Of a stretch of DNA of 58,269 nucleotides, positions 28,001-40,259 are shown piece by piece. The DNA is from a virus (taxonomy: Duplodnaviria > Caudoviricetes), in IMG/VR virus record IMGVR_UViG_3300027782_000098, positions 1 to 58,269 of that record. One strand, given 5' to 3'. A program made the translations under genes and the position numbers. Numbering within the stretch: position 1 is the first letter of the stretch; every line of letters starts with the position of its first letter. A model generated the notes under the pieces. It saw nothing but the letters and a program-made list of their open reading frames with translations. It was not told the DNA's origin and ran no database searches.

Positions 28001-28045
28001 AGAACAAATATACTGATAATATTTGAGTTGGCAAAATAAAATGTG

Positions 28046-28709: not shown

Positions 28710-29029
28710 TATAACATTTGTGATATCATATAAGATAATTTATATCCTGTAAACGCACCCAATGCAGATGGGATTGGGAATACAATTAACTTACCTAAAT
28801 GTGTAACATATTTTGGTCGGTTAACAATCCTACCCATAAATAAATAATATGTTATATAACCAAGTAATACACCAATATCAATACGAGTTGAAATAAAAAC
28901 TACAAGTATTGCACCCAAAAAACCAAAAATAAAATTATCTCGAACACCCTCCCAAATTTCAGAAGTTGTGGCATCTTTATACTCTTTAACAATTTTTTTA
29001 ATTGTAACCTTTTCATTTTTCATAATCAT
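28709..29029 (-). CDS. Membrane protein
   Basis: Three hydrophobic segments; start moved downstream of tRNA-Ile(UAU). Confidence 0.6.
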   Translation of the reverse strand: MIMKNEKVTIKKIVKEYKDATTSEIWEGVRDNFIFGFLGAILVVFISTRIDIGVLLGYITYYLFMGRIVNRPKYVTHLGKLIVFPIPSALGAFTGYKLSYMISQML

Positions 29030-29037
29030 TTTTTTTG

Positions 29038-29111
29038 TCGGAAAGGAAGGAATTGAACCTTCGACCTTTTGTGTATAAGACAACTGCTCTCACCACCTGA
29101 GCTACATTCCG
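29038..29111 (-). tRNA. tRNA-Ile(UAU)
   Basis: Cloverleaf; anticodon loop CTTATAC. Confidence 0.85.
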
Positions 29112-29120
29112 TTTAAATAT

Positions 29121-29157
29121 AAAAAAAATCCCCCTGATTTTCAACTCAGAGGGATTA
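29121..29157 (-). terminator. Terminator-like hairpin after ferritin-like gene
   Basis: Minus strand AATCCCTCTGA-GTTGAAAA-TCAGGGGGATT followed by T tract. Confidence 0.65.
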
Positions 29158-29179
29158 TTAATAATAATAAATTTTAATA

Positions 29180-29638
29180 TTATTTTAAGAACCTTAATTT
29201 ATATAACGTACTATAAATTAATTCTTGAATTGTGTCAATTTGATTTTGGATAAAAGATTCTTTAACTGCTTTTCTGTTTTTTTCAATATTATCATCTAAC
29301 CCTTTAAAGTAAGATATCAGTTGTTCTGTTGATTTATAATCAACCATTTTGATGGTTTTATAACCAGTCAATAAATCGTGTTTTCCTTGGAAACTTTCAA
29401 CGATTCCGTCTATCAATTCACCTATCTCTTCATAATATCCACCTAACGCCATATGCTCAGCAAATGATGATTGTGATTTTGTTTGCCAATGAAATACATG
29501 AACTTGACTTCTTGAGTGAAGTAAAGTTGAAATCATATCAACAATATCAGCTGTTTCGGTTGACCCTTTTTTCTCAGCTTCATTCAATTGTATTACTTTA
29601 AACAATTGTTCTTTTGTTAGCGTTACTCTTTTTTCCAT
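29180..29638 (-). CDS. Dps/ferritin-like protein (DUF5856-like)
   Basis: H.FHWQT....FAEH.ALG.YYE.I..LID..VE motif; ATG at 29638 after TATTTAT. Confidence 0.75.
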   Translation of the reverse strand: MEKRVTLTKEQLFKVIQLNEAEKKGSTETADIVDMISTLLHSRSQVHVFHWQTKSQSSFAEHMALGGYYEEIGELIDGIVESFQGKHDLLTGYKTIKMVDYKSTEQLISYFKGLDDNIEKNRKAVKESFIQNQIDTIQELIYSTLYKLRFLK

Positions 29639-29667
29639 GTCAATAAATATACAAGTATTTGGAAATG

Positions 29668-29739
29668 TTGTGATGGAAGGAATTGAACCTTCGACTTCTT
29701 GGATATGAATCAAGTGTTCTACCACTGAACTACATCACA
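29668..29739 (-). tRNA. tRNA-Met(CAU), elongator or Ile2 not resolved
   Basis: Cloverleaf; anticodon loop TTCATAT. Confidence 0.8.
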
Positions 29740-29744
29740 ATATG

Positions 29745-29816
29745 TGGTTTTGGAAGGATTCGAACCCTCACTCTGAAATCCGTAGTTTCATGTGCTGTCC
29801 ATTACACCACAAAACC
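29745..29816 (-). tRNA. tRNA-Arg(ACG)
   Basis: Anticodon arm TGAAA-CTACGGA-TTTCA. Confidence 0.9.
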
Positions 29817-29820
29817 ATTG

Positions 29821-29891
29821 TTGCCCCTCAAGGATTCGAACCTCAACCGTCTGGACCAAAACCAGATGTCCTGCCGTTAGACGAAAGGGCA
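29821..29891 (-). tRNA. tRNA-Gln(UUG)
   Basis: Anticodon arm TCTGG-TTTTGGT-CCAGA; U1-A72. Confidence 0.9.
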
Positions 29892-29897
29892 ATTTAG

Positions 29898-29978
29898 TGG
29901 GAGTAGTAGGACTCGAACCTACGAACTCTTAGAGGGCTGATTTACAGTCAGCTGCACTTGCCGCTATGCGATACTCCC
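29898..29978 (-). tRNA. tRNA-Tyr(GUA)
   Basis: Anticodon arm GCTGA-CTGTAAA-TCAGC; long variable arm. Confidence 0.9.
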
Positions 29979-30109
29979 AAATAAGGAAAAGAGAAGATGG
30001 TTCAGTGGACATCTCTTTTTACAATTAGCGTTACTCTGACAGTTAAAACTCCCCCATAACTACGAACTACTGACACGTTAACGTTACGGACTTCCCTAAT
30101 CAACCTTAG

Positions 30110-30182
30110 CACGCCTGAGAGGACTCGAACCTCTGACTCCTAGTTTTGGAGACTAGAGCTCTACCAACTGAGCTACAGACGT
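30110..30182 (-). tRNA. tRNA-Trp(CCA)
   Basis: Anticodon arm CTAGT-CTCCAAA-ACTAG. Confidence 0.9.
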
Positions 30183-30191
30183 GTATTATTG

Positions 30192-30263
30192 AGGTCGGTA
30201 TAGGAATTGAACCTATGTTGATAGTTTTGCAGACTATCGCCTAAACCACTCGGCCAACCGACC
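30192..30263 (-). tRNA. tRNA-Cys(GCA)
   Basis: Anticodon arm ATAGT-CTGCAAA-ACTAT; U73. Confidence 0.9.
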
Positions 30264-30269
30264 TTTTAG

Positions 30270-30344
30270 TGTCCCCGATGGGTCTCGAACCCATGACCCC
30301 TAAATTAAAAGTTTAGTGCTCTAAACCAACTGAGCTACGAAGAC
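30270..30344 (-). tRNA. tRNA-Lys(UUU)
   Basis: Anticodon arm CTAAA-CTTTTAA-TTTAG. Confidence 0.9.
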
Positions 30345-30350
30345 ATTAAG

Positions 30351-30424
30351 TTGTCACAGATGGACTCGAACCATCGACCTTCTCGGTATCAGCGAGATGC
30401 TCTAACCAACTGAGCTATGAGACA
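30351..30424 (-). tRNA. tRNA-Ile(GAU)
   Basis: Anticodon arm TCTCG-CTGATAC-CGAGA. Confidence 0.9.
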
Positions 30425-30495
30425 ATAAAAAGTAAAGTATGACGTATGCTCGTCCTGTAGTTGTTTCCATCCGCGGACTCACGGTTCTCTTTACT

Positions 30496-30586
30496 TGGCG
30501 GTGAGAGTAGGATTCGAACCCACGGTACCCTTTCAGGTACTTCGGTTTTCAAGACCGACGCAATCGACCAACTCTGCCATCTCACC
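30496..30586 (-). tRNA. tRNA-Ser(UGA)
   Basis: Anticodon arm TCGGT-CTTGAAA-ACCGA; long variable arm; encoded CCA. Confidence 0.92.
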
Positions 30587-30720
30587 ATAATATAGTGTTT
30601 TGGTCAACCACTCGCATCCCACCAATTTATTGTATCAAACTTTCTGTAGTGCAAACGATTAACTCTCCTACTACTCATTTTCAACTCACTTGCCTAAGCC
30701 TTGTCCGTTGTAAACACTTT

Positions 30721-30796
30721 TGGGTAACTAACGGGAATCGAACCCGTGACACCTTGAACCACAATCAAGTGCTCTGCCAACTGAGCTATAGCTACC
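30721..30796 (-). tRNA. tRNA-His(GUG)
   Basis: Anticodon arm CTTGA-TTGTGGT-TCAAG; G-1:C73; encoded CCA. Confidence 0.92.
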
Positions 30797-31012
30797 ATGT
30801 TGTCGTCCAATCATTTCTGACTGTCCCCAATACCGAATTTCAGCGGCAACTCACCAATTTCGTGAGGGGTTAGAACTCGTGTGTTAACTTGCTCCTGTTA
30901 CTGGTACACTAACCAACCGACTTAGACTCAAGTAATCGGCTCAGGTCCCCATGGTTGTAAAACCACTTCTCATCGTTCGGGAGCAAACTAGTCGTATACT
31001 ACTCGACTCGTG

Positions 31013-31145
31013 TAGTCAAGGTCGGACTCGAACCGAATACCGTTCAAGACGGATTAGACAACCTTACAACTTCTCGCGTCCAAATGATTATGGACCGTGG
31101 CGTCTTGGGGACTTGGGTACCATCCCGCATTACGTCCACTTGACT
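31013..31145 (-). ncRNA. tRNA-like RNA with acceptor and T arms but an expanded central region
   Basis: AGTCAAG/CTTGACT-A acceptor stem and TCGG-TTCGAGT-CCGA T arm around about 100 nt with no canonical anticodon arm. Confidence 0.6.
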
Positions 31146-31220
31146 ATTTACCCCACTTCACCAGCTTAATGGACTGGCTGCCATATGGGAGTGGGGGTTT
31201 CCTGTTATTTCAGGACTCCG

Positions 31221-31293
31221 TGGAACGGGGCGGAATTGAACCGCCGACACCTTGAGCTTCAATCAAGTGCTCTACCTACTGAGCTACCGTTCC
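31221..31293 (-). tRNA. tRNA-Phe(GAA), copy 2
   Basis: Anticodon arm CTTGA-TTGAAGC-TCAAG. Confidence 0.9.
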
Positions 31294-31713
31294 TTATTCT
31301 TTCCAGTTTCCCTCCTTGTAATGGATTTCTCTATGACAATTCGCACAAACTGGTATACATTTTTCCAATTCTTCTTTTAATAACCTCAAAGAACCTCTTT
31401 TTACTAAAGTTGAAATACGCTCTCTTTTATCTCTAATATGGTGAAAATCTAACACATACCAACGTTCATCACCACAAATAGAACATTTACACTTTTTTTT
31501 ATAATCAAATAAGAACTCTTTAACTTCTTTATTTGTTTTTAGTGCGGTTTTTCTAATCTTTGTTTTTCTGTCGTTTTTATTTTGAGAGTAACTATCTCTA
31601 TCTAACTGTCTTTTACATTCTTTACACATACTGTGTAAAATATTTTTTTCTTTATTCTTAAAGAAAAACTCACTTTCATCTTTTTCAATTAAACATCTTC
31701 CACATTTTTTCAT
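31294..31713 (-). CDS. HNH-like endonuclease
   Basis: CxxC...CxxC N-terminus; CSICG...LDFHH...KC.PVCANCHREIH. Confidence 0.85.
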   Translation of the reverse strand: MKKCGRCLIEKDESEFFFKNKEKNILHSMCKECKRQLDRDSYSQNKNDRKTKIRKTALKTNKEVKEFLFDYKKKCKCSICGDERWYVLDFHHIRDKRERISTLVKRGSLRLLKEELEKCIPVCANCHREIHYKEGNWKE

Positions 31714-31776
31714 AATAATCTTTTATTATAAATATCTCAAAAGGACTGAAAAGTTAAAAAAGTTTTCAGTTTTTTG

Positions 31777-31849
31777 TGGTGAGAGCAAGAATCGAACTTG
31801 CGGCACGTAGGGCTTCAACCTACTGCTCTACCTACTGAGCTATCACACC
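31777..31849 (-). tRNA. tRNA-Phe(GAA), copy 1
   Basis: Anticodon arm GTAGG-TTGAAGC-CCTAC. Confidence 0.9.
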
Positions 31850-31852
31850 AAA

Positions 31853-31962
31853 TTTGAGATTGAGAACCTCTGTGTTGTTAGGTAAGACCCAATTAGTCAT
31901 CATTTCTGATGGGTTATCAATTATCCTACTTATGGTTAATTCCTTTCTCACAGGAACAACAC
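31853..31962 (-). ncRNA. Structured RNA, tandem copy B (conserved scaffold, variable insert)
   Basis: GTGTTGTTCCTGTGAGAAAGGAAT-[60 nt]-ACAACACAGAGGTTCTCAATCTCAAA. Confidence 0.65.
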
Positions 31963-31965
31963 GGC

Positions 31966-32067
31966 TTTGAGGTTGAGAACCTCTGTGTTGTGCAAATGTG
32001 AATATACCCCATTATAAAGTTTATATTCACATCTGACTATTTCATTCCTTTCTCACGGGAACAACAC
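31966..32067 (-). ncRNA. Structured RNA, tandem copy A (conserved scaffold, variable insert)
   Basis: GTGTTGTTCCCGTGAGAAAGGAAT-[52 nt]-ACAACACAGAGGTTCTCAACCTCAAA. Confidence 0.65.
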
Positions 32068-32074
32068 AATATTG

Positions 32075-32212
32075 TTGATAATGATGGAGTACCCGTCTCG
32101 CTCCAATCTTAACAGCTTTCCTGAGTTTTATGAGGCCTCGGCTGAAAGGGTGATGAATTCCGATTCCATTCTGGATTGTCGACATCCGTTGAGTGGGGAA
32201 AACCATTATCAA
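32075..32212 (-). ncRNA. Candidate structured RNA
   Basis: GC-rich spacer closed by a 9-bp stem ttgataatg/cattatcaa. Confidence 0.5.
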
Positions 32213-32269
32213 TTTCTTTATTGACGGGGAGTAAGTCACCAACCACTAATACTTACTCCCCACCTTCTG

Positions 32270-32341
32270 TAGTCCGTACGGGAATCGAACCCGTCTTTTA
32301 TCCGTGAAAGGGATATGTCCTAACCGATAGACGAACGGACC
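32270..32341 (-). tRNA. tRNA-Glu(UUC)
   Basis: Anticodon arm TATCC-CTTTCAC-GGATA. Confidence 0.9.
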
Positions 32342-32346
32342 AAATT

Positions 32347-32403
32347 GGTAGTTTTACTCGGACTATTACACCATCGCGGTCTTTACTCCGACTATTATCT
32401 ACC
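32347..32403 (-). ncRNA. Candidate two-fold symmetric hairpin RNA
   Basis: GGTAG-ATAATAG-TCGGA-GTAAAG-ACC-GCGAT-GGT-GTAATAG-TCCGA-GTAAAA-CTACC. Confidence 0.5.
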
Positions 32404-32406
32404 TTG

Positions 32407-32478
32407 TAGTCCCTGTAGGATTCGAACCTACGACTTCTTGCATGTAAGGCAAGAGCTCTACCACTGAGCTAAAGGACT
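32407..32478 (-). tRNA. tRNA-Val(UAC)
   Basis: Anticodon arm CTTGC-CTTACAT-GCAAG. Confidence 0.9.
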
Positions 32479-32529
32479 GTATTTTTTTACCAACATGTCA
32501 AAGACCTCTTTTTGTTTCTTTCAACAGTA

Positions 32530-32560
32530 CAAAGATACTACTTTTTTTTGAACCGCCAAA
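32530..32560 (-). promoter_or_regulatory. Bacteroidota sigma-A type promoter for tRNA array 1
   Basis: TTTG-N19-TATCTTTG; boxA-like GGTCTTTGACA at about 32496-32506. Confidence 0.8.
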
Positions 32561-32563
32561 CCT

Positions 32564-32605
32564 AAAAACAAAAAACCCCAAACTTTTCTACAAAGTTCGG
32601 GGTTT
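32564..32605 (-). terminator. Attenuator terminator of leader 1
   Basis: AAACCCCGAACTTT-GTAGA-AAAGTTTGGGGTTT followed by TTTGTTTTT. Confidence 0.85.
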
Positions 32606-32632
32606 AAATATTCTGTTACTACTAACTTACTA

Positions 32633-32734
32633 TTAACCTAAATCTAATTCCGAACCACAATTTTGCCCATGACGATACCAGCTACAAATCTCTTGTTGCT
32701 TAAACGACGATATATGGACCATTGTTGTTCTCAT
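32633..32734 (-). CDS. Leader peptide 1 (33 aa), putative attenuator of tRNA array 1
   Basis: MRTTMVHISSFKQQEICSWYRHGQNCGSELDLG*. Codons 5-22 correspond to the tRNAs at 28046-32478. Confidence 0.85.
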   Translation of the reverse strand: MRTTMVHISSFKQQEICSWYRHGQNCGSELDLG

Positions 32735-32807
32735 TGTTTATAATTATACACAATATACTAAAAGTTTTAGTTTTGTCAAATAAATTTTTTAAAGTATTTA
32801 TAAAAAG

Positions 32808-33230
32808 ATGAAAACATTAAGACAAATTATTAAAGAAGAGTTATTAGTTGAGAAAAGAATTGCCCAAATAGGAGCTTCTTTAGAAGTTTTATTTTCATTT
32901 GATGTTAATAGAACATCTCACGCATTTGATAGAGCGGTTAGAGATGATATTATAGGTTATAATACAAGACCAATTGTAAATGCTGAAATCAAAGAGATTA
33001 TTAGTATGGCAAAAAATGAAATCGCACAAAAAATAGTTAGCCAAGAAATTAAAACAGAAGAACCATTTGTAGTTAAATCTTTAAAATGGGAATTGGCAAT
33101 GGCAATTACTCCTGTTCATATATCAGGGACTTATTGGGAATTAATTATTAAAACTGTGTTTAGAGAATCTAAATATGACCCGTTTAGAGTTGGTAAAGAC
33201 CAATTAGTTATTACTTTACAAGACGTATAA
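32808..33230 (+). CDS. Hypothetical protein
   Basis: 140 aa; TATTTATA upstream; leader MKTLRQIIKEELLVE. Confidence 0.7.
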   Translation: MKTLRQIIKEELLVEKRIAQIGASLEVLFSFDVNRTSHAFDRAVRDDIIGYNTRPIVNAEIKEIISMAKNEIAQKIVSQEIKTEEPFVVKSLKWELAMAITPVHISGTYWELIIKTVFRESKYDPFRVGKDQLVITLQDV

Positions 33231-33318
33231 AAAAAAGGGTAACACTAGTATCTGAATCGTTCCCGTGTCACCCATTTTGTAATTGAGCTTGTGTATCTAA
33301 ATCGTGCTCCTCAATCAC
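33229..33318 (-). ncRNA. Small RNA with two hairpins carrying the same loop ACGATTYAGATAC
   Basis: Own promoter TATCTTTG (33330-33323); hairpins GTGATTGAG/CTCAATTAC and GGGTGACAC/GTGTTACCC; ends in a U tract. Confidence 0.7.
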
Positions 33319-33359
33319 AGTACAAAGATAAGCAAAAATTTTAATTCACAAAATTATTT

Positions 33360-33935
33360 TTAATAATTTATTTGATGGTCCTGTTTAATAGTCATACTCT
33401 GGCCAACAATAACATTTCTTTTACCTTTTGTCACTGAGTTAACATAATGAGGATGGGTTAACCCACCTGGAAATATAACAATATCTCCTTCGTTTAGACG
33501 ATATTGTACATTTTGTCTTGGGAATACCAACTCACCACCTTCATAATCATTATCCAATCCTCCAACCATTGTTATATTACTAAAATCCCAATGAACTGAT
33601 TGTGAACCTCCCGCATATGTTTCAGGAGAATAGTATAACATATATAAATCTCTCCATATTGTTTTAACATATTCTTTTAAAGATTTGATGGTTTCATAAT
33701 TAACATTAAACCCAACATTATTTTCAACATCATAGATTTTAAAGTATTCTTCAAGATAATTGTTTTCAATTTTTAAAAACCAAAAATCATTTATTTTGTG
33801 AAATAAACTCATATCTAACTTATCAATATCAATCCTTATTTGAGTGTCATTACCTCTAAGTTTTAATAATTCAGAAATAATGTCTTTAGGTATGATTCTT
33901 TCAAAAACAAAAATATCAGTATCTATTTTAATCAT
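33360..33935 (-). CDS. 2OG-Fe(II) oxygenase
   Basis: HWD, YEGGEL.F, G..VIFP, H.V..VT.G.R. Confidence 0.85.
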   Translation of the reverse strand: MIKIDTDIFVFERIIPKDIISELLKLRGNDTQIRIDIDKLDMSLFHKINDFWFLKIENNYLEEYFKIYDVENNVGFNVNYETIKSLKEYVKTIWRDLYMLYYSPETYAGGSQSVHWDFSNITMVGGLDNDYEGGELVFPRQNVQYRLNEGDIVIFPGGLTHPHYVNSVTKGKRNVIVGQSMTIKQDHQINY

Positions 33936-34648
33936 ATACTGTCTTGAATATTAAAATTAATTACACATCTATGACTTTTACCATAAAATGGTTTAACTGA
34001 ATGTACAATATCGTATGGCCAAATAATCAACATACCTTTTTTTGGTCTAAGAAAATGTGACATACCTCTAACATGGAATGTAAATACACCACTATATGGA
34101 TGGTCAGCAATTGGTTCACCGTCAGACAAATAATATCCTCCAACAAAATTTAAAGGAGTTTCTTCGTCAGGAGACCAACGACAATGATTATGTTGATTAT
34201 GACCTCGACCTTCAGTTGGGTTATAATATTGAATCCAACTTTCTGTTATATTTGGATTATTGTTGTTTTTTAGTCCTAATGAATTAATTAACTCCAAATA
34301 ACCGTCCTCACACCTTTTCTTAATTGTTTTAACACATTGTTCATCTCTATTAAGAAAGTCGTTTGGCGGTGTCCAAAAACGACTACCAATTGGGTTATAC
34401 TCTGTAGGCTCAACCCACATGTCCCTTCTGTCGTAGTTTACAAAATAATTTGATTGTCTTTCCAAATCGTATTGCTCAGGTAATTCCTGACCCATTAATT
34501 TTTGTTGAGTACTTAAAGTATTGAATCCCAAATTAAAAACCTCATCATGTAATTCATGGTCATCAAAAATCTTCATGTATACAGGAATTGGAGCAAGGTG
34601 AAATATATTGCTCTGATTTGTTGAAACTAAAGGTGACTGTACATACAT
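33932..34648 (-). CDS. 2OG-Fe(II) oxygenase-like protein
   Basis: SW..Y, HNH, GYY, P..G.LIIWP....HSV.P......R..I.FN; start corrected to ATG 34648. Confidence 0.75.
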   Translation of the reverse strand: MYVQSPLVSTNQSNIFHLAPIPVYMKIFDDHELHDEVFNLGFNTLSTQQKLMGQELPEQYDLERQSNYFVNYDRRDMWVEPTEYNPIGSRFWTPPNDFLNRDEQCVKTIKKRCEDGYLELINSLGLKNNNNPNITESWIQYYNPTEGRGHNQHNHCRWSPDEETPLNFVGGYYLSDGEPIADHPYSGVFTFHVRGMSHFLRPKKGMLIIWPYDIVHSVKPFYGKSHRCVINFNIQDSI

Positions 34649-34663
34649 ATTTACATTTTTTTG

Positions 34664-34744
34664 TACCCCAAGTCGGACTCGAACCGACACGTCATAAGAC
34701 AAATGCTCCTAAGGCATTCGCGGCTACCATTACGCCATCGGGGT
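34664..34744 (-). tRNA. tRNA-Leu(UAG)
   Basis: Anticodon arm AATGC-CTTAGGA-GCATT; variable arm. Confidence 0.9.
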
Positions 34745-34746
34745 AT

Positions 34747-34844
34747 ATATCATTATCGCTTCAGCCACATCGAGGAACACGCCTCCCCCGCGTTGTTTAA
34801 GTGTATAACTTGCGCCGTATCTCACTGAGGTACGATAATGATAT
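34747..34844 (-). ncRNA. Candidate structured RNA between tRNA-Arg and tRNA-Leu
   Basis: Perfect 12-bp closing stem atatcattatcg/cgataatgatat around a GC-rich core. Confidence 0.55.
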
Positions 34845-34846
34845 TG

Positions 34847-34920
34847 TATCCCCGACAGGATTCGAACCTGTGACCTACTGCTTAGAAGGCAGTTGCTCTA
34901 TCCAGCTGAGCTACGGAGAC
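34847..34920 (-). tRNA. tRNA-Arg(UCU)
   Basis: Anticodon arm ACTGC-CTTCTAA-GCAGT. Confidence 0.92.
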
Positions 34921-34931
34921 ATTTTATTTTG

Positions 34932-35017
34932 TACCTGGGGCGGGAATCGAACCCGCACGGACATTACTGTCCACAAGATTTTAAGTCTTGCGTGGCTACC
35001 GATTACACCACCCAGGC
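34932..35017 (-). tRNA. tRNA-Leu(UAA)
   Basis: Anticodon arm CAAGA-CTTAAAA-TCTTG; variable arm. Confidence 0.92.
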
Positions 35018-35072
35018 GAATACATTTAAGAACTATGGTACAAATATAATAGATAAAATTGATTGCTACAAG

Positions 35073-35795
35073 CTATAGTGCAAAACTTTCTTCATATAAT
35101 GTATCCATCGCATCTTCTTCAACATTTATTGTGTGGTATAATGTGACAGTTCCATCATTGAAATTAAAAATGAATTTACCGTCAGAGCCCTCATTGATTT
35201 CCCATCCGCCAAAATTACTTTCAAGTACTCTATAACACCAATCCTCAATATGAGCAGGTACTGCGTCTCCTGTTGGTTCAAAAGAACTTTCAATATAACC
35301 TGAGTCACCACCACCATTATATGGTAATTCTAAAATACCGTCGTTTGGTACCTCAACATCAGAAAATAACCCCTCATCATCCCATTCTTTAAATCTTTCT
35401 TTATCATCTGTAGAGTCAAATTCAATTACGTTTTCACCTCCTCTATCATAATAACCCCAATAATGTGAAATTGAAATTTCTTTATCGTCAACATCAATAT
35501 TGATTTCAAGTTTTTGATAATTCATCATATCAATATCAGGGACAGTAAAAAGATTATCCTCATCAACGTGATTGATTAATTTTTTCAAAATAGGTATTAA
35601 TCCGTCAGGGATGTCTGCAGAATAATTGTTCGCAAAATGTGTGATGTATTTCCATTGAACCTCCTGAGCACTAAAATCATATGCTTCACTCTCAAGTTCA
35701 AATTCAATTAAACCATCTTTCATACCCAAAGAACCCAAGTAATTACAAACTCGGTTTAAGTATTTTTTTTCGTCTGTTGTTAAAATATTTTTCAT
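35073..35795 (-). CDS. DUF6878-like acidic protein
   Basis: YNGGGDSGYIE and GGWEINEGSDG motifs (family recalled from memory). Confidence 0.6.
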   Translation of the reverse strand: MKNILTTDEKKYLNRVCNYLGSLGMKDGLIEFELESEAYDFSAQEVQWKYITHFANNYSADIPDGLIPILKKLINHVDEDNLFTVPDIDMMNYQKLEINIDVDDKEISISHYWGYYDRGGENVIEFDSTDDKERFKEWDDEGLFSDVEVPNDGILELPYNGGGDSGYIESSFEPTGDAVPAHIEDWCYRVLESNFGGWEINEGSDGKFIFNFNDGTVTLYHTINVEEDAMDTLYEESFAL

Positions 35796-35806
35796 ATCAA
35801 TAAATA

Positions 35807-36154
35807 TCAATCTTCAATTTTAAGGGTCCTCAACATCCATTGAGGTCGTTTATTTTCTGAAATATTAGTCACCCATTCTTTTGCAGATGGGATATAATTA
35901 TTACAATCTTCTTTAACATGTTGTTCTCCAACATATCTTGTGTATACTATCTTACCATCACTATTTAAAAATTCAGGACCAAACCTTTTTTCCATTTCAA
36001 AAATACCTTCACTATGATGTCTAAACATTCTATGTAAAGAATCTCCAAACCATCCTTTAGTTTCATCCATCCATTCGTGTAAATGAATATAATCTTCTGG
36101 TTTTCCACCAAACTTTTTGGCGGATGATTTTGCGTGTAAATTAGGGTGTGCCAT
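35807..36154 (-). CDS. DUF6915-like His-rich protein
   Basis: MAHP..HA.SSAKKFGGKPEDY..LH.W.D, HR..RHHSEGIF, GEQHV.ED. Confidence 0.7.
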   Translation of the reverse strand: MAHPNLHAKSSAKKFGGKPEDYIHLHEWMDETKGWFGDSLHRMFRHHSEGIFEMEKRFGPEFLNSDGKIVYTRYVGEQHVKEDCNNYIPSAKEWVTNISENKRPQWMLRTLKIED

Positions 36155-36740
36155 CTTTCCAATAATCTTTATTATAATTATATTTTTTAAATTGACTTTC
36201 AGTCCTTGAATAAACAAAATCAGCTAACTCTTGACTGTAAAATGATTGCCAAGGAATTTCAATACCATGTTCAAATTTAAATGAATTTTTTCTTATTTTG
36301 TTTTCAAAACAATCTTCAAGTAATTCCATATTATTTTTAATGAACCACATATTTTTTAAATCTGATTCTAAAAATTCTGTCCTAAGATAAGCGTCAGGTT
36401 CTTTTGGTATTTCACTTAACGAATGGTCTAAATAAACTGTATAGTAATTTAAATGTTCATTTTGTTTATCTAACGCGCTTTTAATCCATGATGGAAAAAC
36501 TTCAATATCAAAACTGATTTGTTTATGAATACAAAATAATTTAAATAAAGAAACTAATCTAGGATATGGGTGTCTAATATTTACCACTAAAAAGTAATTC
36601 TCTTTATCCTTTCTAACAATTAACCCATGGTTATCATTTAAATTTGAAAATTTTAATAATTTTTGGATTTCACCACATGACCTAGATGCAGTTCTCATTG
36701 GATTTAACCAAACAACTTTTAATTCGTCATTATATCTCAT
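36141..36740 (-). CDS. Sulfotransferase-family protein
   Basis: 5'-PSB-like PMRTASRS and 3'-PB-like IRHPYPRLVS; start corrected to ATG 36740. Confidence 0.65.
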   Translation of the reverse strand: MRYNDELKVVWLNPMRTASRSCGEIQKLLKFSNLNDNHGLIVRKDKENYFLVVNIRHPYPRLVSLFKLFCIHKQISFDIEVFPSWIKSALDKQNEHLNYYTVYLDHSLSEIPKEPDAYLRTEFLESDLKNMWFIKNNMELLEDCFENKIRKNSFKFEHGIEIPWQSFYSQELADFVYSRTESQFKKYNYNKDYWKDGTP

Positions 36741-36742
36741 AG

Positions 36743-36817
36743 TGGAGCTAGTGAGAATCGAACTCACCTCAGAAACATTGCAAGTGTTTCTCGCCAAGCC
36801 TTGGTACATGTAACCCC
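36743..36817 (-). tRNA. tRNA-Ala(UGC), atypical D arm
   Basis: G3-U70 acceptor; anticodon arm AAACA-CTTGCAA-TGTTT. Confidence 0.8.
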
Positions 36818-36823
36818 TTGTTG

Positions 36824-36896
36824 AGCCTCCTGTCGGAATCGAACCAACGACCTACTGATTACAAATCAGTTGCTCTACCAGCTGAGCTAAGGAGGC
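36824..36896 (-). tRNA. tRNA-Thr(UGU)
   Basis: Anticodon arm ACTGA-TTTGTAA-TCAGT. Confidence 0.92.
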
Positions 36897-36952
36897 ATTG
36901 TAGTGGACGCAAGCTCATCACTTGCTCATGGGCTTCCACCGAGCCCCTTTTG

Positions 36953-37024
36953 CGGTCCCACGGAGAATCGAACTCCGAACTCAGCCGTGACAGGGCTGCA
37001 TTATAGCCGTTTAACTATGAGACC
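36953..37024 (-). tRNA. tRNA-Asp(GUC)
   Basis: Anticodon arm CAGCC-CTGTCAC-GGCTG. Confidence 0.9.
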
Positions 37025-37295
37025 AATTGTCCCCACCTGAGATTATAGTGAGTAGATTTTAACGGTTTTTTCGTCTTGAAAAAACATATCCCCTATTATC
37101 GTGTACAACCCCAAATAGGTTAACCGTAAGATAGGTCTTTTTCATTAGTGTCTTACCACATAAAAAAAGTCAAACATACTCGGTGGGTTTGTTAAGTCCA
37201 TTCTCCGAGAACCCCCTCTATAAAGTCGTGGAAGGCTACAACTATACCATTCTTAAGTAACGGTACCAAAACTATTGGGTATCTCTTACCCTTTG

Positions 37296-37367
37296 AGCGA
37301 ATGAGAGGAATCGAACCTCCGTCTCCTACTTGGAAGGAAGGAGTAATGACCATTATACGACATTCGC
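37296..37367 (-). tRNA. tRNA-Gly(UCC)
   Basis: Anticodon loop CTTCCAA; G1-C72, C2-G71, U73. Confidence 0.9.
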
Positions 37368-37372
37368 AATTG

Positions 37373-37444
37373 CGTCCCCTCAAGGATTCGAACCTTGGAC
37401 CTATTCGTTAACAGCGAATTGCTCTACCGCTGAGCTAAAAAGAC
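37373..37444 (-). tRNA. tRNA-Asn(GUU)
   Basis: Anticodon arm ATTCG-CTGTTAA-CGAAT; G73. Confidence 0.88.
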
Positions 37445-37449
37445 GATTG

Positions 37450-37523
37450 TCGGGGTGGCAGGATTTGAACCTACGACCTCTTGGTCCCAAACCAAGCGCG
37501 ATACCGAGCTACGCTACACCCCG
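37450..37523 (-). tRNA. tRNA-Pro(UGG)
   Basis: Anticodon arm CTTGG-TTTGGGA-CCAAG; C1-G72. Confidence 0.92.
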
Positions 37524-37558
37524 TCTATTTTTATTTTCCCATAAACCAAAGAACACTA

Positions 37559-37589
37559 CAAAGGTAATCAAAAAACCTTATAAAACAAA
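37559..37589 (-). promoter_or_regulatory. Bacteroidota sigma-A type promoter for tRNA array 2
   Basis: TTTG-N19-TACCTTTG, followed by boxA-like GTTCTTTG. Confidence 0.8.
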
Positions 37590-37620
37590 AAACCCTGAAC
37601 TTTATGTGTTCAGGGTTTTT
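37582..37620 (-). terminator. Attenuator terminator of leader 2
   Basis: AAAAACCCTGAAC-ACATAAA-GTTCAGGGTTTTT followed by TGTTTT. Confidence 0.85.
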
Positions 37621-37642
37621 AAATTTGGCTTCATTACTACCA

Positions 37643-37732
37643 TTATTTAACATCTGAACACGAGCATAGATTCCCTGTACCGTCGTTTGTCGGTGCTAAA
37701 GCTAATCTATTAAGCGTGTTTAATGTTGTCAT
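37643..37732 (-). CDS. Leader peptide 2 (29 aa), putative attenuator of tRNA array 2
   Basis: MTTLNTLNRLALAPTNDGTGNLCSCSDVK*. Codons 2-22 use only amino acids of the tRNAs at 34664-37523. Confidence 0.85.
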   Translation of the reverse strand: MTTLNTLNRLALAPTNDGTGNLCSCSDVK

Positions 37733-37737
37733 AATGT

Positions 37738-37745
37738 TATAAATA
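37738..37745 (-). promoter_or_regulatory. Putative phage late promoter TATTTATA upstream of leader 2
   Basis: Same motif precedes most structural genes in the window. Confidence 0.65.
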
Positions 37746-37770
37746 GTAATAAAAATTAAAAAATCAAACC

Positions 37771-38031
37771 CTAAAGGTATTTTTTAAACAAATCTTGTAA
37801 AATTTTATCATCTTCTTGAGATATACGATAATAAGATTCACTTAATTTATTCATTTTTTCAAGGAATTCTTCCTCTAAATTTCCTCGACGAACTTCAGTC
37901 GTATTACGAACTGTTTGAGGTAGATGTCCCGCATCAATTAACTCATCAATAAGTTCTTTAATTTCGTTTTTGCTGCATTCTGAGACAAACTCATAAGGTT
38001 CAACCTCAACATAACTGGTAAAATCTGGCAT
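37771..38031 (-). CDS. Hypothetical protein
   Basis: 86 aa ORF. Confidence 0.6.
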   Translation of the reverse strand: MPDFTSYVEVEPYEFVSECSKNEIKELIDELIDAGHLPQTVRNTTEVRRGNLEEEFLEKMNKLSESYYRISQEDDKILQDLFKKYL

Positions 38032-38069
38032 AGTTTATTTATTTAAAATGTTAAAAATTTTTCTTTGAG

Positions 38070-38285
38070 TTATTCGTTGTCGTAATCTTCCTCATAACTT
38101 TCAATTTTGTCCTCAACGTATTTACGAATTTTTCTCATGTTATCCAATAATTCCAATCTTAGTTTATGGAACTCTTCATCTTTGATTTCCTCAAATGAGC
38201 TGTAATGTTCAAAACAATAATCCATACCTTCATCTCTCATTCGGTAATCTACCGCTCGCCAATTTTCTAATTCTTCTTCTGTCAT
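38070..38285 (-). CDS. Hypothetical protein
   Basis: 71 aa ORF overlapping the mgsA stop codon. Confidence 0.6.
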   Translation of the reverse strand: MTEEELENWRAVDYRMRDEGMDYCFEHYSSFEEIKDEEFHKLRLELLDNMRKIRKYVEDKIESYEEDYDNE

Positions 38286-38677
38286 AAATTTTCTTTTTCT
38301 AATTTTCTTTCTAAACCTGAAATAATATAAGACGCTGTCATGTAATTTGTTGCAAGTGGTGTATTATACACATTACAAATTCTTAATAACATATTAACAT
38401 CCACTTGGTGGGGATGAACCTCCAACGGGTCGATAAAAAACACAACACCTGAAATTTCACCATCAGCAATCATTGACGCAATTTGAGCATCACCACCAAG
38501 TGGACCCGATTTCATACATTGAACATCTAATCCAGCATGTTCAATATGTCTTCCTGTTGTTCCTGTCGCAATAACGTCAACTTTTTTAAAGAAGTCCAAT
38601 CTTTTCATAATGAAAGCAACCATATCGGCTTTCTTACCATCATGAGCAATAACAGCAATTTTCATTTTTTTATTCAT
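38282..38677 (-). CDS. mgsA: Methylglyoxal synthase
   Basis: IAVIAHDGKK, ATGTTG, SGPLGGDAQI, FFIDPL..HPH..DV..L.R.C.V...PLATN. Confidence 0.93.
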   Translation of the reverse strand: MNKKMKIAVIAHDGKKADMVAFIMKRLDFFKKVDVIATGTTGRHIEHAGLDVQCMKSGPLGGDAQIASMIADGEISGVVFFIDPLEVHPHQVDVNMLLRICNVYNTPLATNYMTASYIISGLERKLEKENL

Positions 38678-38680
38678 TTG

Positions 38681-38754
38681 TGGACCAGCCTGGGCTCGAA
38701 CCAGGGACCTACGCATTATGAGTGCGGTGCTCTAACCAACTGAGCTACAAGTCC
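38681..38754 (-). tRNA. tRNA with CAU anticodon (Ile2-like or Met)
   Basis: Cloverleaf; anticodon loop CTCATAA. Confidence 0.85.
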
Positions 38755-38763
38755 GATTTTATT

Positions 38764-38922
38764 TTAAAACAATATTAAGTCTCCCAAATTATTGTCATAT
38801 TCATCATCCCAATTACAAGATAATTCATTATCTAATCCATCCATTAAAGTTACATCAAACTCTTTTATATCTTCCAACTCTTCAGTTGTGTACGTAAATT
38901 TTTCTTTAGGGTCATTTTTCAT
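38764..38922 (-). CDS. Small acidic protein (52 aa)
   Basis: MKNDPKEKF...WDDEYDNNLGDLILF; TATATTTG 4 nt upstream of ATG 38922. Confidence 0.55.
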   Translation of the reverse strand: MKNDPKEKFTYTTEELEDIKEFDVTLMDGLDNELSCNWDDEYDNNLGDLILF

Positions 38923-39164
38923 AGCACAAATATAGTAAGAATTTTTAGTTTTCAAAAGTTTTTTAAGATATTTATAAGAGACGATAATAGACAAAATAAA
39001 ATTGTGTCTTTTGGAAATTGAGAACAACGGTGTGATGAGAAGTGGAAAATCTCGAACCATAAACAACAACTAAATCAAGGTATATTTAAAAAGGGGTGAA
39101 ATAATTTCGTCCCTTTTTTTTGTTTTATACTCAAAATAACCTATTCTTGTGAAAAGAGGTAAAT

Positions 39165-39653
39165 ATGAATAATGTATTAGTATTAAATTACGATTATACC
39201 CCGTTAAATGTAACGAGCACAAGAAGAGGGTTTATATTGGTTGATAAGGGAAAGGCTGAAATTGTAAAATCAGATGAAAATCCAATATATGCAGGTTATA
39301 CCACCTATATAAGACCACTTATTATTAGATTGTTAAGTTACATCAAATTCAATAGAAAATCAACAAGGGTTAACAGAGCAAGGATTTATAAAAGGGATAA
39401 CTACGAGTGTGTTTATTGTGAATCAAAAAAACAATTAACATTAGACCATGTAATTCCAAAATCCAGAGGTGGAGGTAATGAGTGGACTAATCTTGTAACC
39501 TCATGTTTTAAATGTAACCTTAGAAAAGGTAATAGAACTCCTGAAGAAGCAAATATGGTAATGAAGAAAAAACCATACGTACCATCAATGATGAATGAAA
39601 ATGTTGCGTTAAATAAAGCGTGGGATGATTATCAAAAATCATTTGTTTCTTAA
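39165..39653 (+). CDS. HNH endonuclease (McrA-like)
   Basis: VLVLN..Y.PL, RD...[16 protein letters not shown]...W.NLV.SC..CN..KG. Confidence 0.9.
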
Positions 39654-39676
39654 AAAAAATTATTAGATTTTATTAA

Positions 39677-39958
39677 ATGAATTTTATGAAAAGAGAAACA
39701 AAATTAGAAATTGGATTGATATTAACAATCTTATTATGTATTTCTTTAGGTGTTCAATATGGTAATGAGGGGAACAAAAGAATTAAACTTGAAAATTCCG
39801 TGATTGAAAACCGAATTATTATTGATAGTTTGAACGATGAGTTATTTAACACAAGTGTTGAATTATCAAGACATGAATTGACTTTGGATACAATTCTAAA
39901 AAAATATCCAAAAATAAACAAAGAATACGAAGAGTATTATAATCACGAAACAGAATAA
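39677..39958 (+). CDS. Membrane-anchored hypothetical protein
   Basis: N-terminal hydrophobic helix followed by coiled coil. Confidence 0.55.
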   Translation: MNFMKRETKLEIGLILTILLCISLGVQYGNEGNKRIKLENSVIENRIIIDSLNDELFNTSVELSRHELTLDTILKKYPKINKEYEEYYNHETE

Positions 39959-39959
39959 A

Positions 39960-40259
39960 ATGGAAGAAAATCATTTAAACCCAAACGAAGAAGGTTATCA
40001 AGATAACCCACAAGACTTACTTAACTCATCAATGTTATTTGCAAGAGCTTTAGGATTAATTTTTAAAGAAAATGAAGGTATCGTTGTTGACGTTAAAGGT
40101 GATGTTATGTTAGCGGATGATGTTAAAAAAGTAATCATCTTTAAACAAAACAATCAAATCCACATTTTTAAATGTGAAGAAGATGTTGAAGAAGGAATGG
40201 CGGTTAATTTAGGTCCAAACACCGAAGAAACTCAAGAACCTGAAATAACACAAGAATAA
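39960..40259 (+). CDS. Hypothetical protein
   Basis: 99 aa ORF. Confidence 0.55.
   Translation: MEENHLNPNEEGYQDNPQDLLNSSMLFARALGLIFKENEGIVVDVKGDVMLADDVKKVIIFKQNNQIHIFKCEEDVEEGMAVNLGPNTEETQEPEITQE

What the first reader, a model, noticed from the sequence alone, without database searches (positions are those of the whole stretch)
37582..37745. Second, independent leader/attenuator matching tRNA array 2
Seen: ORF 37732-37643 reads ATG [ACA ACA TTA AAC ACG CTT AAT AGA TTA GCT TTA GCA CCG ACA AAC GAC GGT ACA GGG AAT CTA] TGC TCG TGT TCA GAT GTT AAA TAA. All 21 bracketed codons encode T, L, N, R, A, P, D or G. These are exactly the downstream tRNAs: Pro-UGG, Asn-GUU, Gly-UCC, Asp-GUC, Thr-UGU, Ala-UGC, Leu-UAA, Arg-UCU, Leu-UAG. 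The match is isoacceptor-specific: Arg here is AGA (tRNA-UCU is in this array), whereas the leader 1 sensor block uses CGT (tRNA-ACG is in array 1), and both TTA and CTN Leu codons appear. The composition breaks just before GTGTTCAG, an 8-nt perfect complement of CTGAACAC in the terminator 5' arm and loop. The two leaders share little sequence but have the same logic and split the genetic code between them, which makes coincidence very unlikely (not formally computed).
Basis: partly seen in the sequence, partly recalled or inferred. Interest (0 to 1): 0.96.

Follow-up and report, generated by a model that had tools for sequence, protein, structure and literature searches.

The report
Leader-peptide attenuators of phage tRNA arrays
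A tiny gene in front of a huge phage's block of tRNA genes is written in just the codons those tRNAs read and ends in a switchable transcription stop, so the phage probably senses which tRNAs run short and then makes more of them.

Summary
ORF 37732-37643 (minus strand, 29 aa) has 21 consecutive codons drawn only from the 8 amino acids served by the 9 tRNAs behind it. It is followed by a strong intrinsic terminator (37620-37588), and it contains an 8-nt stretch complementary to the terminator's 5' arm.

A second leader (32734-32633) does the same for the other 16 tRNAs. Between them, the two blocks cover all 20 amino acids.

Comparative evidence is the main support. In 82 related sequences I found 128 leader/array pairs. 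Across the 61 unique complete pairs, 469 of the 492 amino-acid types present in arrays also occur in their own leader. When tRNAs move between arrays, the leaders change with them. The antiterminator pairing covaries.

Best reading (about 0.75): these are classical ribosome-dependent transcription attenuators, here applied to tRNA arrays. Stalling at any hungry codon would give read-through.

Caveats:
- There are no usable expression data.
- A promoter-like box lies between terminator and first tRNA in the window and in 62 of 79 relatives, so the terminator may modulate rather than gate.
- The anti-antiterminator helix is weak in the window itself.

Six literature searches found no earlier description. 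I rate it a new variant of a known kind, of high interest.

The parts
37737..37767 (-). Promoter-like region of leader 2: a TTG-type box at 37767-37762 and a conserved TA-rich box ending 7 nt before the ATG. There is no Shine-Dalgarno sequence.
   Evidence: Read. The same TA-rich box lies 8-20 nt before the ATG of leaders in relatives. The phage's genes in general lack SD: 1 of 52 ORFs has one. Promoter function is inferred.
37643..37732 (-). Leader ORF 2 (29 codons plus stop).
   Evidence: Homologous ORFs are found in relatives by hmmsearch.
37667..37729 (-). Sensor block: 21 codons drawn only from the 8 amino acids of the array behind it.
37715..37727 (-). Segment 1 (anti-antiterminator strand, codons 2-6).
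   Evidence: It pairs with segment 2 in the MFE of the full leader RNA. Family-level support comes; in the window alone it is not significant (p 0.14).
37649..37662 (-). Segment 2. It contains GTGTTCAG (37661-37654), which pairs either with segment 1 or with segment 3.
37606..37613 (-). Segment 3: CTGAACAC, the 5' arm of the terminator plus two loop bases.
37582..37620 (-). Intrinsic terminator (13-bp stem, 7-nt loop, T tract); segments 3 and 4.
37559..37566 (-). TAnnTTTG box (the Bacteroidota -7 promoter type, name recalled), lying between the terminator and tRNA-Pro.
   Evidence: present in 62 of 79 unique relatives at this place. Whether it acts as a promoter is not tested.
36740..37523 (-). 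tRNAs Pro-UGG, Asn-GUU, Gly-UCC, Asp-GUC, Thr-UGU and the Ala-UGC-like gene (36817-36740).
34663..35017 (-). tRNAs Leu-UAA, Arg-UCU and Leu-UAG, lying behind three protein genes (35073-36740).
32573..32779 (-). Paralogous leader 1. Promoter 32779-32752, ORF 32734-32633, sensor block 32722-32669, terminator 32605-32573. It precedes the 16-tRNA array 32478-28045.

Best explanation
This is a ribosome-dependent (leader-peptide) transcription attenuator placed in front of a phage tRNA array.

Proposed mechanism. RNA polymerase starts just upstream of the ATG, and a ribosome translates the 29-codon leader while the RNA is being made. The first 21 codons after the ATG sample every tRNA species encoded downstream. 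If all of these tRNAs are available, the ribosome runs on to the stop codon and covers segment 2. Segments 3 and 4 then fold into the terminator and transcription ends before tRNA-Pro. If any sampled tRNA is scarce, the ribosome stalls inside the block. Segment 2 stays free, pairs with segment 3 (GTGTTCAG with CTGAACAC), the terminator cannot form, and the polymerase reads on into the tRNA genes. Without any translation, segment 1 pairs with segment 2 and the terminator forms.

The result is an OR-gate over 9 tRNA species with negative feedback from the phage's own tRNAs. Leader 1 does the same for the other 15 anticodons.

Shown by computation: the ORF, the codon match, the terminator, the alternative pairings, their conservation and covariation, and the co-variation of leader content with array content.
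Inferred: translation of the leader, stalling, read-through, and the physiological signal.
For: Window. The 21-codon block holds 8 of 8 amino-acid types and covers 9 of 9 anticodons; it is unique among 116,426 six-frame positions. Leader 1's 18-codon block holds all 13 amino-acid types of its array (the next best 18-mer in the window holds 10) and covers 14 of 15 anticodons. The terminator has a 13-bp stem. The full-RNA MFE shows 1:2 plus 3:4 at -40.9 kcal/mol, z -4.4. With the terminator's 3' arm removed, the MFE switches to 2:3. Leader 1 behaves the same way.

Relatives. 71 of the 82 sequences scanned carry leaders. There are 128 leader/array pairs and 61 unique complete ones, in which 469 of 492 array amino-acid types are present in the leader. 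Within-class permutation reached the observed value in 0 of 5000 trials, and within-class differences are concordant 1059 times against 118 discordant.

Re-assortments.
- Where Leu-Arg-Leu has its own leader, that leader is 12-13 Leu/Arg codons out of 21 (P 2e-8 to 3e-7). In those phages the Pro-type sensor drops to a mean of 1.3 Leu+Arg codons, against 4.4 elsewhere.
- In L013, tRNA-Pro sits in a third array whose leader has three Pro codons, while the first leader has none.
- In L062, the leader block and the array share the same 11 amino-acid types.

Independent lineages found by an RNA pattern alone. L093, L145 and L152 cover 13 of 13, 13 of 13 and 14 of 14 array types (read off its table). 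L159 has 13 consecutive Leu/Ser/His/Tyr codons in front of His, Ser, Ser, Tyr and Leu x4, and 8 of 8 anticodons are matched.

RNA level. The GTTCRG element occurs in all three reading frames and even after the stop codon, so it is an RNA constraint and not a peptide constraint. The antiterminator is 97.0% paired against 89.7% in shuffles, 3 of 7 pairs show double changes, and the covariation score is 0.213 against 0.087 (0 of 500 shuffles reach it); slid registers pair at 47% or less. An A-C clash in the core occurs in 0 of 36 unique combinations. ViennaRNA on 73 unique leaders predicts the terminator in 71, 1:2 in 55, and 2:3 after truncation in 60.

In 17 of 79 unique regions no TAnnTTTG box lies between terminator and first tRNA; in 12 of these the gap is only 6-13 nt, which leaves no room for a promoter.
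Against: - No expression data of value. Only metatranscriptome contigs were available. One 210-nt contig (X15) spans 32506-32716, that is leader 1 and 67 nt past its terminator, at depth 2.7, and DNA carry-over cannot be excluded.
- A TAnnTTTG box lies between terminator and first tRNA in the window (37566-37559) and in 62 of 79 unique relatives. The arrays may therefore have their own promoter, and the attenuator may only add to it.
- Precision is 0.62: in 282 cells a leader holds an amino acid that has no tRNA in its array.
- 3 of the 21 codons are not strictly cognate.
- Nearest-neighbour contrasts are few: 14 concordant against 2 discordant changes, and 8 against 2 pairs (sign test p 0.055). 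Losses of tRNAs are often not mirrored in the leader.
- L023 and L042 have Leu-Arg-Leu behind a Pro-type leader with one Leu codon and no Arg codon.
- The 1:2 helix is not significant in the window itself (p 0.14 and 0.28), and RNAalifold found no consensus on the whole-leader alignment.
- Three protein genes (about 1.7 kb) lie between tRNA-Ala and tRNA-Leu. Co-transcription that far is not shown.
- 11 of the 82 sequences had no detectable leader.
Confidence: 0.75

Rival explanations
1. The small ORF encodes a functional micro-protein with its own promoter and an ordinary terminator. The tRNA arrays are driven only by the TAnnTTTG promoter behind it, and the terminator merely insulates the two units.
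For: A TAnnTTTG box lies after the terminator in 62 of 79 unique regions. The leaders are conserved as ORFs. Terminators directly in front of tRNAs also occur after real protein genes, for example 29156-29127 after the gene ending at 29180.
Against: This reading does not explain why peptide composition follows the tRNA content of the array through several re-assortments. It does not explain why GTTCRG is kept in all three frames and even outside the ORF, or why it covaries with the terminator arm. In 12 unique regions the terminator ends only 6-13 nt before tRNA-Pro.
Confidence: 0.08
2. The leader is a translation sensor, but its output is not read-through into the tRNAs. The terminated leader RNA, or the peptide, would act in trans, as described for the rnTrpL/peTrpL products of a rhizobial trp attenuator (seen only as abstracts in the listing).
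For: The terminated RNA would be a stable, structured product of about 150 nt. A possible downstream promoter makes read-through dispensable.
Against: No target is known. The alternative pairing that disrupts the terminator is conserved and covaries, which only makes sense if termination itself is the regulated step.
Confidence: 0.07
3. The attenuator is translation-independent: the RNA would bind a tRNA or a protein directly (T-box-like or protein-mediated), and the ORF is incidental.
For: The terminator and antiterminator would work with any ligand that holds segment 2.
Against: No T-box or other riboswitch family was listed by Rfam at E <= 1 over 27000-40000. The reading frame is kept open in 82 unique relatives, while the other two frames carry about 3 stops each. 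The signal lies in codons, including the choice between isoacceptor boxes.
Confidence: 0.04
4. Chance: an ordinary terminator of the upstream 86-aa gene, plus a spurious small ORF that happens to match.
For: AT-rich DNA holds many small ORFs. Runs of 19-36 residues from the same 8-letter set occur elsewhere in the window, in repeats.
Against: The per-position probability is about 2e-8 for this leader and 3.5e-8 for leader 1, and each sits directly in front of its own array. The pattern recurs in relatives and in independent lineages with other amino-acid sets.
Confidence: 0.01

Closest known systems
Multivalent leader-peptide attenuators of enterobacterial amino-acid operons (thr operon leader, Rfam RF00506; ilvGMEDA and ilvBN leaders). 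The biology is recalled from established knowledge.
   Same: A short leader ORF rich in the codons of several amino acids, with mutually exclusive 1:2 / 2:3 / 3:4 pairings and an intrinsic terminator in front of the regulated genes. The Thr_leader model even aligns end to end to 37584-37752.
   Different: The score is 28.4 bits against a gathering score of 55, so this is not a member. Here the regulated genes are tRNAs, not biosynthetic enzymes. The leader samples 8-14 amino acids, mostly once to a few times each, where thr has runs of two. The element is in a phage whose genes lack Shine-Dalgarno sequences.
trp operon attenuator (trpL), the textbook four-segment model (recalled).
   Same: The logic of a ribosome at the stop codon masking segment 2, a stalled ribosome freeing it, and termination in the absence of translation.
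   Different: In trp the regulatory codons lie inside segment 1. Here the block lies between segments 1 and 2. It has a single-amino-acid input, against a many-tRNA OR-gate here.
pheST (pheM) leader-peptide attenuation of phenylalanyl-tRNA synthetase (recalled).
   Same: Leader-peptide attenuation applied to a component of the translation apparatus rather than to biosynthesis.
   Different: It regulates a synthetase and senses one amino acid. I know of no tRNA genes under such control, and six searches found none.
T-box riboswitches (recalled).
   Same: They read the state of specific tRNAs and switch a terminator/antiterminator pair.
   Different: They bind uncharged tRNA directly with no ribosome and no ORF. 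No T-box match was listed here.
tRNA clusters of large phages (T4, T5, huge phages; recalled).
   Same: Arrays of many tRNA genes interspersed with small ORFs and homing-endonuclease-like genes.
   Different: No leader-peptide control has been described for them, as far as my searches show. No cultured close relative of this phage is in the phage collection.

Membership tests
Ribosome-dependent (leader-peptide) transcription attenuators | A short ORF with start and stop lying between promoter and terminator, kept open in relatives. | tested here: met
   ORF 37732-37643. In 82 unique homologous leaders the other two frames carry about 3 stops each.
Ribosome-dependent (leader-peptide) transcription attenuators | The leader is enriched in codons that report on the regulated product. 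| tested here: met
   21 of 21 codons fall in the 8-amino-acid set and 9 of 9 anticodons are covered. Family-wide, 469 of 492 amino-acid types and 519 of 574 anticodons are matched.
Ribosome-dependent (leader-peptide) transcription attenuators | An intrinsic terminator upstream of the regulated genes. | tested here: met
   37620-37588, 13 pairs plus a T tract. Predicted in 71 of 73 unique relatives.
Ribosome-dependent (leader-peptide) transcription attenuators | An antiterminator (2:3) mutually exclusive with the terminator. | tested here: met
   8-bp complement. The truncated RNA folds into it, as do 60 of 73 relatives. Covariation 0.213 against 0.087, with 0 of 500 shuffles reaching it.
Ribosome-dependent (leader-peptide) transcription attenuators | An anti-antiterminator (1:2), or ribosome masking of segment 2 at the stop codon. 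| tested here: inconclusive
   1:2 appears in the window's MFE and in 55 of 73 relatives. Family mean duplex energy is -8.1/-9.1 against -4.4/-5.4 kcal/mol for shuffles, but the window itself gives p 0.14 and 0.28. RNAalifold found no consensus. The stop codon lies 8 nt after segment 2, within ribosome reach (sequence).
Ribosome-dependent (leader-peptide) transcription attenuators | No independent promoter between the terminator and the regulated genes. | tested here: inconclusive
   A TAnnTTTG box lies at 37566-37559 and in 62 of 79 unique relatives. It is absent in 17, of which 12 have a gap of only 6-13 nt.
Ribosome-dependent (leader-peptide) transcription attenuators | Read-through responds to translation of the leader and to supply of the sensed tRNA. 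| not testable with these tools
   Only metatranscriptome contigs were available.
Rfam RF00506 Thr_leader | Score at or above the family's gathering threshold (55 bits). | tested here: not met
   28.4 bits, E 0.067 on 13 kb and 0.0015 on 301 nt.
T-box riboswitch | A match to the T-box covariance model (specifier loop, T-box sequence). | tested here: not met
   No such match is listed at E <= 1 in 27000-40000 or at E <= 10 in 37500-37800.

The most novel reading that the evidence does not exclude
Huge phages of Bacteroidota-like hosts run their tRNA arrays under 'barcode' leaders. Each array would be preceded by a mini-gene that spells out, codon by codon, the tRNAs encoded behind it, forming an any-of-N sensor of tRNA supply. 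Such a sensor would switch the array on when the host pool fails, whether through codon-usage mismatch, host shut-off, or tRNA-cleaving defence nucleases. It would switch the array off again once the phage's own tRNAs have filled the gap. Leader and array would co-evolve, so the leader could be used to read which tRNAs form one transcription unit.
Probability: 0.35. Interest if true: 0.95.

Novelty: new variant of a known kind. Interest (0 to 1): 0.9.

Why it matters
Why phages carry tRNA genes, and how they time their expression, is an open question. The usual answers are codon-usage compensation, and replacement of host tRNAs that are degraded or cleaved by defence systems.

A leader that samples every tRNA of the array would be direct sequence-level evidence that the phage measures tRNA supply and responds to it. 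It would make the question testable: change one codon in the leader, or deplete one tRNA, and measure read-through.

It would also extend leader-peptide attenuation in three ways. It would take it from amino-acid operons to tRNA genes. It would take it from one to three sensed amino acids to as many as 14. And it would take it to an organism group in which genes lack Shine-Dalgarno sequences.

Finally, it would give annotators a simple rule for finding tRNA transcription units in huge phage genomes.

Tried and rejected
- Close relatives among cultured phages: none. Only tRNA-level DNA matches were found, and the DUF6915 protein reaches under 60% identity in 127 records.
- My first terminator script timed out. 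I rewrote it to scan only upstream of tRNAs. It misses stems with bulges, for example leader 1 of L012, so I located leaders by hmmsearch instead.
- RNAalifold on 25 whole Pro-type leaders gave no consensus pairs. In that alignment segment 2 is shifted in several rows. I therefore used anchored registers, ViennaRNA per sequence, and a shorter alignment for the pair counts.
- The third promoter/terminator pair in front of tRNA-Ile-UAU (29238-29127) is not a leader. The terminator follows the conserved C-terminus of a real protein.
- Read laying on four metatranscriptome runs returned contigs only. Most pieces are tRNA look-alikes from other organisms, and there are no ends, strands or levels. 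The absence of cover over leader 2's terminator carries no information.
- Of the 11 genome contigs pattern hits, at least six are a tRNA followed by a similar terminator, with GTTCAG lying inside the tRNA. Only L159 is a leader.
- I did not use structure, complex or protein-atlas tools, because the finding is about RNA and codons.
- I did not examine paper supplements. Papers were seen only as search listings and abstracts, plus one term search in PMC2965389 that found 0 occurrences of tRNA gene, tRNA operon or phage.
I corrected that and sent it again.
Full report
What the window is. The window is a 58,269-base IMG/VR virus record estimated at 19% complete, so it is a piece of a phage of about 300 kb. 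GC content is 32%. It carries 25 ARAGORN-called tRNA genes, all on the minus strand. Freshwater metagenomes hold the stretch. Its genes lack Shine-Dalgarno sequences: 1 of 52 ORFs has one, against a 5% background, and positions -14 to -9 are A-rich. TAnnTTTG boxes are enriched 20-40 nt upstream of ORFs, in 14 of 52 against about 11% expected. From recalled knowledge this is typical of Bacteroidota hosts, so the missing SD in front of the small ORF is no argument against its translation.

The observation. On the minus strand an ATG at 37732 opens a 29-codon ORF that ends at 37643. The 21 codons after the ATG encode only T, L, N, R, A, P, D and G.
- Downstream tRNAs are Pro-UGG, Asn-GUU, Gly-UCC, Asp-GUC and Thr-UGU, then three protein genes (DUF6915, DUF6878 and a weak sulfotransferase-like match), then Leu-UAA, Arg-UCU and Leu-UAG.
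The locus 36740-36817 is almost identical to genes that ARAGORN does call tRNA-Ala(UGC) in L004, L011 and L018, and it has G3:U70 and the anticodon loop.
- By strict wobble 18 of 21 codons are cognate and 9 of 9 anticodons are covered.
- A 13-bp terminator with a T tract lies at 37620-37588.
- GTGTTCAG at 37661-37654 is the perfect complement of CTGAACAC at 37613-37606.

Chance. The eight amino acids make up 0.447 of the window's coding usage. That gives 4.6e-8 for 21 in a row, and 2.1e-8 once all eight must appear. In all six frames (116,426 positions) this is the only 21-mer in the set that holds 8 of 8 types; the next best listed hold five and belong to a low-complexity repeat. Leader 1 (32734-32633) has an 18-codon block that holds all 13 amino-acid types of the 16-tRNA array behind it. 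The next best 18-mer in the window holds 10, the per-position probability is 3.5e-8, and 14 of 15 anticodons are strictly covered.

Relatives.
- A search with the DUF6878 protein found one distant relative (L002, 38% identity) with the same layout and recognisably homologous leaders.
- The DUF6915 protein found 529 relatives, of which 80 loci were fetched.
- hmmsearch with leader profiles over all plus-strand stop-to-stop segments gave 128 leaders at E < 1e-4 in 71 of 82 sequences; 11 had none.
- The leaders fall into three classes. The Pro type is the one under study. The Val/Glu type is leader 1. The third is a Leu/Arg type that the window lacks.
- The leader frame is open in all 82 unique versions, while the other two frames carry 3.0 and 2.9 stops on average. 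The set was selected as ORFs, so this is supportive rather than a proof.

Leader content follows array content.
- In 61 unique complete leader/array pairs, 469 of 492 amino-acid types present as tRNAs also occur in the leader's sensor region (sensitivity 0.957). Precision is lower at 0.62, with 282 cells where the leader holds an amino acid that has no tRNA in its array.
- The mean Jaccard index is 0.598. It is 0.354 after permuting arrays over all leaders and 0.541 (sd 0.0075) after permuting within a class; 0 of 5000 permutations reach the observed value in either test.
- Within-class differences are concordant 1059 times and discordant 118 times. These counts are not independent.
- In 28 disjoint nearest-neighbour pairs there were 14 concordant and 2 discordant changes; 8 pairs were mostly concordant and 2 mostly discordant (sign test p 0.055). 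Close relatives often differ in tRNAs without a matching change in the leader, so the leader lags behind the array.
- At codon level, 519 of 574 anticodons have a strictly cognate codon in the sensor. Arg is AGR 26:2 in Pro-type leaders and 16:2 in Leu/Arg-type leaders, but 17:23 in Val/Glu-type leaders, whose arrays hold Arg-ACG.

Re-assortments, which are the most telling cases.
(a) In several loci (for example L006, L010, L031, L039, L049, L063) the Leu-UAA, Arg-UCU, Leu-UAG cluster has its own leader and terminator. That leader has 12-13 Leu/Arg codons out of 21 (P 2e-8 to 3e-7). The Pro-type sensor of the same phages has a mean of 1.3 Leu+Arg codons (3 unique), against 4.4 where no separate leader exists (22 unique, including the window with 6). 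L023 and L042 are exceptions.
(b) In L013, tRNA-Pro sits in a third array whose leader has three Pro codons, while the first leader has lost Pro.
(c) In L022 and L030, tRNA-Tyr has joined the Pro-type array, and the leader has three Tyr codons.
(d) In L062, the leader block and the array share the same 11 amino-acid types, including Asn and Gly, which are foreign to that class.
(e) A scan of viral contigs with a pattern made only of the RNA scaffold (76 stretches) brought in lineages not found through the protein. Their leaders cover 13 of 13, 13 of 13 and 14 of 14 array amino-acid types (L093, L145 and L152; read off; a simulation for them was not run, see Tried and rejected).
(f) The same pattern in bacterial and archaeal genomes gave 11 hits, 8 of them in Bacteroidota. 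At least six are merely a tRNA followed by a similar terminator. L159, on a 375-kb contig with phage-like genes, has a 24-codon leader with 13 consecutive Leu/Ser/His/Tyr codons (0.205^13 = 1.1e-9). It sits in front of His, Ser-GCU, Ser-UGA, Tyr and four Leu tRNAs, and 8 of 8 anticodons are matched.

RNA switch.
- Folding the window's leader RNA gives a 5' helix between codons 2-6 and the region around GTGTTCAG (1:2), plus the terminator (3:4), at -40.9 kcal/mol, z -4.4.
- Without the terminator's 3' arm, the minimum-energy fold pairs GTGTTCAG with CTGAACAC (2:3). Leader 1 behaves the same way.
- Over 73 unique leaders, the terminator is predicted in 71, segment 2 pairs with the start of the ORF in 55, and 2:3 forms after truncation in 60.
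- The GTTCRG core of segment 2 is present in 74 of 82 unique leaders. It stands in all three reading frames relative to the ORF, and in some cases just after the stop codon. It is therefore conserved as RNA and not as peptide.
- In 36 unique segment 2/3 combinations, the core and first flank pair in 36. The second flank pairs in 26 (permutation mean 18.3, p 0.0024) and the third in 20 (p 0.09). The A-C clash never occurs.
- On the MAFFT alignment of 33 Pro-type elements (29 distinct), the 7-pair antiterminator is 97.0% paired against 89.7% in shuffles. Three pairs show changes on both sides (17 cells; one pair reads UA 10, AU 8, GC 5, other 6). The covariation score is 0.213 against 0.087, with 0 of 500 shuffles reaching it, and slid registers pair at 47% or less. 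This exceeds the covariation of the terminator itself (0.131).
- The 1:2 helix is less secure. Family mean duplex energies are -8.1 and -9.1 kcal/mol against -4.4 and -5.4 for shuffles, and 32 of 74 reach p <= 0.05. The window's two leaders give p 0.14 and 0.28, and RNAalifold found nothing on a poorly aligned whole-leader set.

Mechanism proposed. This is classical attenuation. A ribosome that reaches the stop codon, 8 nt after segment 2, masks segment 2, and the terminator forms. A ribosome stalled in the block leaves segment 2 free to hold segment 3, and the polymerase reads into the tRNAs. Because the block holds one to five codons for every tRNA of the array, shortage of any one of them would induce the whole array, and the phage's own tRNAs would shut it off again. 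The steps from translation onward are inferred.

What weakens it. A TAnnTTTG box, with a TTTG 19 nt upstream formed by the terminator's T tract, lies between the terminator and tRNA-Pro in the window, and a TAnnTTTG box at this place in 62 of 79 unique relatives. If it is a promoter, the attenuator adds to rather than gates tRNA synthesis. In 12 unique regions (among them L002, L006, L023, L039, L042 and L063) the terminator ends only 6-13 nt before tRNA-Pro, so there read-through is the only visible route. Expression data are nearly absent: one low-depth RNA-library contig bridges leader 1 and its terminator (32506-32716), and another runs from the upstream gene into leader 2 (37689-37890), and DNA carry-over cannot be excluded.

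Comparison with the known. Rfam's Thr_leader model aligns end to end to 37584-37752 but scores 28.4 bits against a threshold of 55. The element works like such a leader but is not a member. No T-box or other leader family was listed. Six full-text searches for leader peptides or attenuators in front of tRNA genes, tRNA operons, tRNA arrays or phage tRNAs returned nothing relevant, and a term search in a survey of bacterial attenuators found no mention of tRNA genes or phages. I therefore rate it a new variant of a known kind: the known mechanism, applied to a new class of target, with an unusually wide input.

Verdict. My confidence in the attenuator reading is about 0.75. Interest is high (0.9).

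Noticed in passing
window 29127-29238 (minus strand): A strong promoter-like site (TTGACA, 17-nt spacer, TATAGT) and an 11-bp terminator lie directly before tRNA-Ile-UAU. The terminator follows the conserved C-terminus of a real 181-aa protein (29180-29725). This is a gene-end terminator 15 nt before a tRNA, with no leader ORF.
   Followed up: partly
window 36740-36817 (minus strand): A tRNA-Ala(UGC)-like gene with an unusual D arm. ARAGORN misses it in the window, and Rfam lists it only as a 22.7-bit tmRNA-like hit. Near-identical copies in L004, L011 and L018 are called tRNA-Ala.
   Followed up: yes
window 37535-37551, and after most terminators in relatives: A second conserved box of the type GTTCTTTGA..AT.TGG lies near the TAnnTTTG box, between terminator and first tRNA. 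Its function is unknown; it could be part of a promoter or a processing signal.
   Followed up: no
L015 about 8810-8860; L073 about 11080-11130: Here the long leader is replaced by a mini-ORF of 4-5 codons whose TGA stop lies inside the 5' arm of the terminator. A terminating ribosome would sit on the terminator stem. This may be a constitutive, translation-coupled variant.
   Followed up: partly
L159 6322-7617: A 431-aa ORF with class I aminoacyl-tRNA-synthetase motifs (HIGH and KMSKS, recognised from memory) lies between the Leu tRNAs of a leader-controlled array, on a 375-kb contig filed under a Bacteroidota MAG. The contig looks like a huge phage or prophage.
   Followed up: no
window 33363-34702 and 38285-38716 (minus strand): Two 2OG-Fe(II) oxygenase-like proteins lie between the two arrays, and an MGS-like domain protein lies just upstream of leader 2, behind a separate tRNA-Met (38680-38754).
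   Followed up: partly
window 31220-31849 (minus strand): Two tRNA-Phe(GAA) genes are separated by a 139-aa ORF (31294-31713).
   Followed up: no
Genome-contig loci L157, L160, L163, L166: Chitinophagaceae genomes (Niabella and MAGs) end tRNA-His and tRNA-Gln genes with terminators of the same CCCTGAAY...TTCAGGG type as the phage. This is a hint, no more, at the host group.
   Followed up: no
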